This document shows positions 25,057 through 25,262 of a stretch of 64,000 bases of DNA, one piece after another. The first letter of the stretch is position 1, and every line of letters starts with the position of its first letter. This DNA comes from Chiloscyllium plagiosum (taxonomy: Eukaryota): assembly GCF_004010195.1 (NCBI RefSeq), contig NC_057718.1:103447946-103511945 (forward strand), given 5' to 3'. The translations under genes were made by a program, and so were the position numbers. The notes below the pieces were generated by a model. It saw only the letters and a list, made by a program, of their open reading frames with translations. It was not told the origin of the DNA and did no database searches.

Positions 25057-25262
25057 TTGAAACTTTATTGCTGGAACAGCACAGCAGGTCAGGCAGCATC
25101 CAGGGAACAGGAGATTCGACGTTTCGGGCACAGGCCCTTCTTCAGGAATCTGTGCCCGAAACGTCGAATCTCCTGTTCCCTGGATGCTGCCTGACCTGCT
25201 GTGCTGTTCCAGCAATAAAGTTTCAACTTTGATCTCCAGCATCTGCAGACCTCACTTTCTCC
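25057..25262. mobile_element. Young Penelope-like family A fold-back mini-element
   Basis: Near-perfect inverted arms with CpGs intact; perfect 14-bp TSD tgcacgtttatggg at 25043-25056 and 25263-25276. Confidence 0.9.
25113..25150 (-). ncRNA. Minimal type I hammerhead ribozyme motif (PLE family A)
   Basis: GAUUC-CUGAAGA-A-GGGC-CUGU-GCCC-GAA-ACGU-C|GAAUC: 5-bp stem I, 4-bp stem II, palindromic ACGU stem III. Confidence 0.8.

What the first reader, a model, noticed from the sequence alone, without database searches (positions are those of the whole stretch)
25113..25150. Intact minimal hammerhead ribozyme in a young PLE mini-element
Seen: the minus strand has the full core CUGAAGA...GAAA, a perfect 5-bp stem I (GAUUC/GAAUC), stem II GGGC/GCCC and a GUC triplet, predicting cleavage between 25118 and 25117. 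Stem III is reduced to the palindrome ACGU. Established: Penelope-like elements carry such minimal type I hammerheads, thought to cleave as dimers via the palindromic stem III. Inference: with CpGs intact and a perfect TSD, this is the copy most likely to still be active.
Basis: partly seen in the sequence, partly recalled or inferred. Interest (0 to 1): 0.7.

Follow-up and report, generated by a model that had tools for sequence, protein, structure and literature searches.

The report
Hairpin-trapped hammerhead in Penelope element stub
The small self-cutting "hammerhead" RNA motif is really there, inside a recent 206-base stub of a very abundant Penelope-like jumping gene in a shark-type genome, but the stub is a near-perfect hairpin predicted to pair the motif away, so this copy is likely a silent passenger of a known kind and not an active ribozyme.

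Summary
Motif confirmed: minus strand 25150-25113 has CUGAAGA, stem II GGGC/GCCC, GAAA-CG-UC and a cut site at 25118/25117. It is the only window hit with both stems of 4 bp or more; 0 of 300 shuffles gave one. It is the pLTR end of a Penelope-like element (PLE), in a 206-bp head-to-head stub with a 14-bp TSD, 78-nt perfect arms and a 35-nt tail offset. Youth is supported: a related species has the empty site. "Most likely still active" is not supported. Any read-through RNA is predicted to bury the motif in the hairpin (penalty 37.7 kcal/mol), there is no dimer partner in cis, and stem I is only 4 bp of the element's own sequence, extended by the junction. Both arms span the cut site, so their templates were uncut. 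Likely origin: two-strand priming at two reverse-transcription starts, as shown for a lizard PLE (PMC11167929). This is a new member of a known kind, and this scan has already reported the same stubs many times elsewhere in this genome.

The parts
25043..25056 (+). Left target-site duplication, 14 bp; its last G is also the last base of the inverted arm (1-nt overlap)
   Evidence: D1, I1; single copy at the empty site in organism B, record 2
25056..25149 (-). Inverted pLTR arm, family positions +1 (25149) to +94 (25056); holds the whole hammerhead motif and lacks the 35-nt tail
25113..25150 (-). Minimal type I hammerhead motif as reported: stem I 25149-25146 with 25117-25114 (own pairs; 25150/25113 added by the junction), core CUGAAGA 25145-25139, extra A 25138, stem II 25137-25134 with 25129-25126, GAAA 25125-25122, palindrome ACGU 25122-25119, C17 25118; predicted cut 25118/25117
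25149..25150 (.). Head-to-head junction of the two arms; 25134-25149 is the 16-nt spacer between the perfectly complementary parts
   Evidence: loose ends behind 25149
25150..25262 (+). Forward pLTR arm, family positions +17 to +129; 5'-truncated in loop II, so it has only the 3' half of the hammerhead (no CUGAAGA) but spans the cut site (25165/25166)
25228..25262 (+). 35-nt 'tail' present on one arm only
   Evidence: matches the 30-40 bp PLE tail in PMC8557442 and PMC11167929
25263..25276 (+). Right target-site duplication, 14 bp
47182..47458 (.). Elsewhere in the window: inverted fragments of PLE reverse transcriptase/thumb coding sequence directly abutting a copy of the same pLTR family (47087-47183); links the family to an autonomous PLE

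Best explanation
This is a recent, non-coding 206-bp head-to-head stub of the hammerhead-bearing end (pLTR) of an endonuclease-type Penelope-like retroelement, likely made in one insertion event, and its hammerhead is predicted to be paired away in a 78-bp hairpin and so likely silent at this locus. Shown: motif, TSD, arms, 35-nt tail offset, empty site in a relative, and the link of the family to RT/GIY-YIG ORFs. Inferred steps: (1) The PLE endonuclease nicked both target strands 14 nt apart. (2) Each nick primed reverse transcription on sense pLTR RNA, at two start sites 35 nt apart (+129 and +94). (3) One cDNA ran to +1, probably the RNA's 5' end, and the other stopped at +17. Both crossed the cut site, so the templates were uncut. 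(4) The two cDNA ends were joined head to head and the gaps filled, giving the TSD. The ribozyme motif is inherited cargo: in the parent element it would act, if at all, as a dimer in tandem transcripts or with help from the PLE protein.
For: Anatomy. Sequestration: whole element -184.7 kcal/mol, z -22; hammerhead stems cost 37.7 kcal/mol in read-through, and 10 nt of upstream arm already lowers their probability to 7e-7. PLE link: an RT fragment abutting a family copy hits 63 of 64 candidate proteins, the best from Chiloscyllium at 94-98% identity, in a set with RVT_1 and GIY-YIG domains. 1 of those 63 proteins, a Stegostoma PLE ORF read-through (P0011), ends in LMKGLRPKR, the one-frame translation of this motif (family copy: LMKGLCPKR). 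Youth: organism B contig joins 24480-25042 directly to 25263-25341, with flanks differing at 23 of 571 and 13 of 488 letters. Uncut templates: 13 of 16 aligned window arms include sequence 5' of the cut site (read by eye). Precedent: both strands cleaved and extended, two RT starts bounding the tail, hammerhead not needed and uncut RNA the main substrate (PMC11167929); inverted 5'-truncated copy plus 30-40 bp tail is the usual PLE insertion (PMC8557442, PMC3846280).
Against: Folding is an equilibrium prediction and no cleavage was measured. An RNA starting at +1 would exclude the upstream arm (predicted stem probability 0.24 for 37 nt, 0.01-0.02 for longer RNAs). 2 of 16 window arms begin at or 1 nt after the cut site (20397 forward arm, 48182), which hints that cut RNA is sometimes copied. 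No full-length parent element was seen, since no genome is held. The link of the motif to a PLE ORF rests on 1 of 63 proteins and one adjacent fragment; a BLASTP of P0011 against a different frame of a copy found nothing, and a search with that frame found only two host-protein models. The two-primer route is borrowed from a lizard element, and self-priming on an antisense template would give the same shape (PMC3846280).
Confidence: 0.85

Rival explanations
1. One reading: the inverted arm keeps an internal promoter, transcription starts at +1 (25149), the upstream arm is excluded, and the RNA self-cleaves at 25118/25117 as an intermolecular dimer or with help from PLE protein.
For: Best-paired stem I in the window. 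4 of 16 window arms start exactly at +1. The parental context there reads TC-A-TTC (loose ends), like an initiator (consensus recalled, not from a call). D. virilis Penelope has an internal promoter active in the 3' pLTR (PMC2377424 passages). The lizard hammerhead cleaves when protein is present (PMC11167929).
Against: In this copy the two bases before +1 are replaced by the opposite arm (AG), which breaks the initiator-like match. Predicted stem probability from +1 is only 0.01-0.02 in longer RNAs. The active-type dimer (-18.9 kcal/mol) is less stable than the best dimer (-24.1) and than two monomers (-20.0) in the nearest-neighbour model. In one single-cell polyA run (about 2% read) depth was 0 in all 24 flank-only bins and no read-end pile-up was listed; that library type would hardly show such ends.
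Confidence: 0.07
2. The hairpin arose by self-priming (fold-back) or a template switch during copying of a single template, not by two independently primed cDNAs. The hammerhead is still a silenced passenger.
For: Arms are 78 of 78 identical. Arkhipova et al. read head-to-head junction palindromes as self-priming on an antisense template (PMC3846280 passage).
Against: The 35-nt offset equals the distance expected between two RT start sites. Both target strands are extended in vitro (PMC11167929). The 16-nt spacer is not a fold-back palindrome, though this point is weak.
Confidence: 0.06
3. The 206-bp palindrome is itself a non-autonomous mobile unit (MITE-like or retrozyme-like) that is copied as a whole.
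For: Very high family abundance: summed contig depth over the element is about 1-3 x 10^5 times the flank depth (the tool warns that this is no copy number). Several window copies are hairpins.
Against: The hairpin centres differ in each of the five two-armed window copies (5168, 8732, 20397, 25057, 55560). The 15 best-supported joints listed from other copies (170 more not shown) all differ from each other. There are no tandem units with a hammerhead in each at this locus.
Confidence: 0.02

Closest known systems
Minimal hammerheads (min-HHR) in the pLTRs of metazoan PLEs (Cervera and de la Pena 2014, PMC4209133; parts 1-2 of 4 read)
   Same: Core CUGANGA/GAAA/UH, no helix III beyond palindromic 15.2-16.2, an extra nucleotide between 9 and 10.1, G10.1-C11.1, short helix I, mostly dispersed single copies linked to truncated PLEs, some pairs close together on opposite strands.
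   Different: Helix II is 4 bp against 7-8 bp in the Schistosoma families. The parts read name teleosts, coelacanth, Xenopus and reptiles but no shark (supplementary alignments not seen). Here the motif sits in a perfect hairpin.
Insertion unit of canonical EN+ PLEs: pLTR, adjacent inverted 5'-truncated copy, optional 30-40 bp tail, TSD (PMC3846280, PMC8557442; passages read)
   Same: Head-to-head arms, 35-nt tail on one arm, TSD, empty site.
   Different: No ORF at all (206 bp). The TSD is 14 bp against 8-10 bp in the rotifer examples.
Poseidon element of Anolis carolinensis, PAc (Frangieh et al. 2024, PMC11167929; parts 1-2 of 4 read)
   Same: Hammerhead just upstream of the tail, two RT starts bounding the tail, both strands extended, uncut RNA as template.
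   Different: Related shark ORFs carry a CX4CxxC RT-EN linker (P0001), described for Neptune/Nematis rather than Poseidon (no tree built). The target here is not clearly AT-rich.
Non-LTR retrozymes (PMC7229834 passages; bioRxiv 10.64898/2026.07.22.740005, part 1 of 5 and passages)
   Same: Non-coding, type I hammerhead, related to PLE pLTRs; reported in one chondrichthyan.
   Different: Retrozymes are head-to-tail repeats with a hammerhead in each unit and give circular RNA. This locus is head-to-head with one whole motif.

Membership tests
PLE minimal hammerhead (min-HHR) | Catalytic core C3-A9 (CUGANGA), G12-A15.1 (GAAA), U16.1-H17 | tested here: met
PLE minimal hammerhead (min-HHR) | Helix III absent; positions 15.2-16.2 palindromic | tested here: met
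   ACGU
PLE minimal hammerhead (min-HHR) | Extra nucleotide between 9 and 10.1, and G10.1-C11.1 pair | tested here: met
   A25138; G25137-C25126
PLE minimal hammerhead (min-HHR) | Short helix I (4-5 bp) | tested here: met
   4 own pairs, plus 2 from the junction; most family copies have a U-U mismatch (1 of 7 paired at that column; 58-90% of laid depth)
PLE minimal hammerhead (min-HHR) | Covariation in helices | tested here: inconclusive
   Within 8 copies of this family: 0 two-sided changes, no better than shuffles. Across three window families the stems differ in sequence yet pair around the same core (read by eye).
PLE minimal hammerhead (min-HHR) | Lies in the pLTR of a PLE | tested here: met
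   P0011 C-terminus (1 of 63 proteins); RT fragment abutting a family copy
PLE minimal hammerhead (min-HHR) | Self-cleavage as dimer or with protein | not testable with these tools
   Folding predicts sequestration in place; no biochemical assay possible
EN+ PLE insertion unit | Adjacent inverted 5'-truncated pLTR copy | tested here: met
EN+ PLE insertion unit | 30-40 bp tail at one end only | tested here: met
   35 nt
EN+ PLE insertion unit | Target-site duplication with an empty site | tested here: met
Autonomous EN+ PLE | RT plus GIY-YIG ORF at this locus | tested here: not met
   206-bp stub without ORF; 0 Pfam hits in the ORFs over it
Neptune/Nematis clade (parent element) | CX2-5CxxC linker between RT and EN; placement in an RT tree | tested here: inconclusive
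   Motif present in P0001; no tree built; parent not recovered
Non-LTR retrozyme | Head-to-tail repeats with a complete hammerhead in at least two consecutive units | tested here: not met
Rfam hammerhead families | Covariance-model match | tested here: not met
   No hammerhead family among 7 matches at E up to 5 or 2 matches at E up to 10

The most novel reading that the evidence does not exclude
This shark PLE starts its RNA at an initiator placed exactly on the first base of hammerhead stem I, so the ribozyme is the first 37 nt of the transcript and internal RT starts at +94/+129 turn that 5' end into more than 10^5 stubs. A subfamily with a fully paired stem I (GAAUC) is still spreading: it makes up about 42% of laid depth in organism A against 10% in organism B, and this insertion may still segregate in A. 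That would be selection for ribozyme function in a living vertebrate PLE, and junction statistics (ends at +1 against ends at the cut site +33) would read out how often the hammerhead cuts in vivo.
Probability: 0.2. Interest if true: 0.45.

Novelty: new member of a known kind. Interest (0 to 1): 0.15.

Why it matters
As a single locus it matters little: it is one of a very large number of PLE stubs and is probably inert. It is a clean, dated example (TSD, empty site, 35-nt tail, uncut template) that fits the in vitro mechanism of the lizard PLE. It also shows that a pristine ribozyme sequence is not the same as an active one when the insertion itself builds the antisense strand. The role of PLE hammerheads is still open, and the population of junctions in this genome, not this copy, is where it could be tested.

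Tried and rejected
Whole genome: none held, so no genome-wide junction count and no parent element. Family patterns in metagenome, bacterial-genome and viral collections: 0 matches in 4 scans. Rfam: no hammerhead hit; the weak miRNA hits are hairpin chance matches. Host gene: 0 Pfam hits in 300 of 310 ORFs of 60 aa or more, so intronic or intergenic position and read-through direction are unknown; short exons would be missed. Run search: no RNA holder listed, which is no evidence on expression. Pfam on 5 window PLE fragments: 0 hits; the homolog search did identify one of them. BLASTP of P0011 against one frame of a copy: nothing, and it was a different frame from the one that matches. RNAalifold across three families: misaligned and discarded. 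Covariation within the family: none. A DPE-like reading of ACGT at +28 to +31: weak match to the RGACGTGY motif quoted in PMC2377424, not pursued. Strand bias of intact motifs (7 of 8 on minus): too few to use. The dimer-cleavage paper of Lünse et al. 2017 is recalled only and was not held. A shark PLE hammerhead was not found in the listings of searches (of the listed papers I opened only the eight cited); supplementary alignments of PMC4209133 and the supplements of the 2026 preprint were not seen and may hold it.

Full report
Observation. The minus strand from 25150 to 25113 reads GAUUC CUGAAGA A GGGC CUGU GCCC GAAA CG UC GAAUC. Alone it folds into stem I and stem II (-10.0 kcal/mol, z -1.6). 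C3 is 25145 and C17 is 25118, so the predicted cut is 25118/25117 as stated. A descriptor of core, stem II, palindromic stem III and UH found 9 sites in the window against 0.19 per shuffle; 8 of the 9 have ACGU and the extra nucleotide. Only this site has stems I and II of 4 bp or more, which 0 of 300 shuffles produced. Rfam has no matching hammerhead model. The motif is real.

Context. The motif lies in a 206-bp insert (25057-25262) between two identical 14-bp repeats. The insert is two copies of one unit joined head to head. Taking the A at 25149 as +1, the inverted arm covers +1 to +94 on the minus strand and the forward arm covers +17 to +129 on the plus strand. The arms are perfectly complementary over 78 nt, and the forward arm is 35 nt longer at its 3' end. 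The forward arm lacks CUGAAGA. Both arms span the cut site.

Stem I. The script finds 6 contiguous pairs, but the two outer ones use bases 25150-25151 of the opposite arm. Family reads and contigs leave the window sequence behind 25149 with a consensus beginning GAGG (agreement 0.61 and 0.45), so the parent probably has CCUC before +1 and a 4-bp stem. Most family copies also carry GAUUC after the cut, giving a U-U mismatch: 6 of 7 window copies are unpaired at that column, and the variant makes up 58-61% of laid depth in organism A and 90% in organism B. These shares come from sequence at least 90% like this copy and are biased towards it.

Family. BLAST finds pieces of the unit at about 16 places in the 64 kb. 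Summed contig depth over the element is about 1-3 x 10^5 times the flank depth, a rough sign of abundance and not a copy number. A copy at 47087-47183 abuts fragments of a reverse transcriptase. That fragment hits 63 of 64 candidates, best Chiloscyllium proteins at 94-98%, in a set with RVT_1 and GIY-YIG domains. One of the 63, a Stegostoma PLE ORF read-through, ends in LMKGLRPKR, the translation of this motif. The unit is therefore the pLTR end of an endonuclease-type PLE in a shark-type genome. P0001 has a CX4CxxC linker, which suggests Neptune/Nematis; no tree was built.

Age. In run X14 (organism B) one 650-nt contig joins 24480-25042 directly to 25263-25341, an empty site with one copy of the duplication, and flanks differ by 3-4%. 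In run X3 (organism A, sample S2; the best holders of the stretch are sample S1) the left-flank contig stops aligning at 25056 with 16 letters left over, and the right-flank contig starts exactly at 25263. That is the geometry an empty allele would give with 31-letter words (30 minus 14 = 16; word length assumed). I could not see those 16 letters, and polymerase skipping of a hairpin between direct repeats could mimic it, so polymorphism is an inference. Run X6 had no listed record that decides the point. Intact CpGs do not single this copy out, since the copy at 4254 also keeps all three in the motif.

Activity. On the minus strand the complementary arm is transcribed before the motif. The whole element folds at -184.7 kcal/mol as one hairpin. 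Forcing stems I and II costs 37.7 kcal/mol, also at the moment the motif has just emerged, and 10 nt of upstream arm lowers their probability to 7e-7. The only escape is an RNA starting at +1, where the probability is 0.24 for 37 nt and 0.01-0.02 for longer RNAs; the initiator-like TC before +1 is replaced in this copy. A dimer partner is missing in cis: the nearest same-family, same-strand intact cores are at 4250 and 55684. The active-type dimer is not the preferred dimer in the nearest-neighbour model, which ignores tertiary contacts. In one single-cell polyA run (about 2% read), 1483 reads were laid, 98% ran on into unlike sequence, depth was 0 in the 24 flank-only bins of 30, and no end pile-up was listed. 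That is weak evidence, since this library type would hardly show cleavage ends. No host gene was found.

Mechanism. PMC11167929 (parts 1-2 of 4) reports for an Anolis PLE that both DNA strands are cut and extended, that reverse transcription starts at two internal sites bounding the tail, that the hammerhead cuts only with protein, and that uncut RNA is the main template. Applied here, two nicks 14 nt apart each primed a cDNA, at +129 and +94; one ran to +1 and the other to +17, and the ends were joined. These steps are inferred. Of 16 aligned window arms, 4 start at +1, 2 run further upstream, 7 start within the motif, 2 start at +33 or +34, and 1 starts near +43 (by eye). Self-priming on an antisense template (PMC3846280 passage) is the main rival for the shape and does not change the verdict on activity.

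Comparison. The motif meets every structural feature of the min-HHR in PMC4209133 (parts 1-2 of 4) apart from the longer helix II of the Schistosoma families. That paper found a monomer inactive and dimers weak. The architecture is the standard EN+ PLE insertion (PMC8557442 and PMC3846280, passages) without an ORF. It is not a retrozyme (PMC7229834 passages; 2026 preprint part 1 and passages). PMC2377424 and PMC6155905 were seen as passages. Searches listed no description of this shark family, but supplements were not seen. Earlier agents of this scan reached the same reading for other loci in this genome; these notes are unchecked and not independent support, and my reading was stated before I saw them.

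Verdict. A real motif in a real young PLE stub of a known kind. The specific claim of likely activity is not supported. Interest 0.15.

Noticed in passing
window 48182-48485 (+) and 46340-47183 (-): Head-to-tail pairs of the same pLTR family separated by a shared non-coding spacer of roughly 120-200 nt. This is the arrangement that would allow dimer cleavage, but the cores are decayed (G12 and CpG changes) or truncated. The second pair is interrupted by a second PLE family at about 46438-46883.
   Followed up: partly
window 37106-37139 (-), 38400-38433 (+), 46480-46513 (-): A second PLE-like family with its own minimal hammerhead (stem I GCA/UGC, same ACGU palindrome); two copies point outward on either side of the assembly gap 37375-38284.
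   Followed up: partly
window 29755-29784 (-): A third family's minimal hammerhead (stem I GUU/AAC, 5-bp stem II, ACGU); related tails at 12940-13030, 26523-26588 and 50405-50442.
   Followed up: no
window 20397-20578 and 48182: One arm begins exactly at the predicted cut site (+33) and another 1 nt after it; possible copies of cleaved RNA (2 of 16 arms).
   Followed up: partly
window 25146-25151: The two junction bases that extend stem I equal the two bases after GAAT at +37/+38. This may be chance (about 1 in 16) or a trace of templated end-joining primed through the self-complementary stem I.
   Followed up: no
P0064, P0065: A piece of this pLTR family is translated inside predicted FUBP3-like isoforms of Chiloscyllium plagiosum: exonisation or a gene-model artefact.
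   Followed up: no
whole window: 7 of 8 intact minimal hammerhead motifs lie on the minus strand; too few to call a bias, but it could reflect selection against sense-strand ribozymes in a host transcript.
   Followed up: no
window 8732-8841, 41303-41429, 55560-55773: Other family stubs also have 13-18 bp TSDs (by eye), longer than the 8-10 bp quoted for rotifer PLEs.
   Followed up: no
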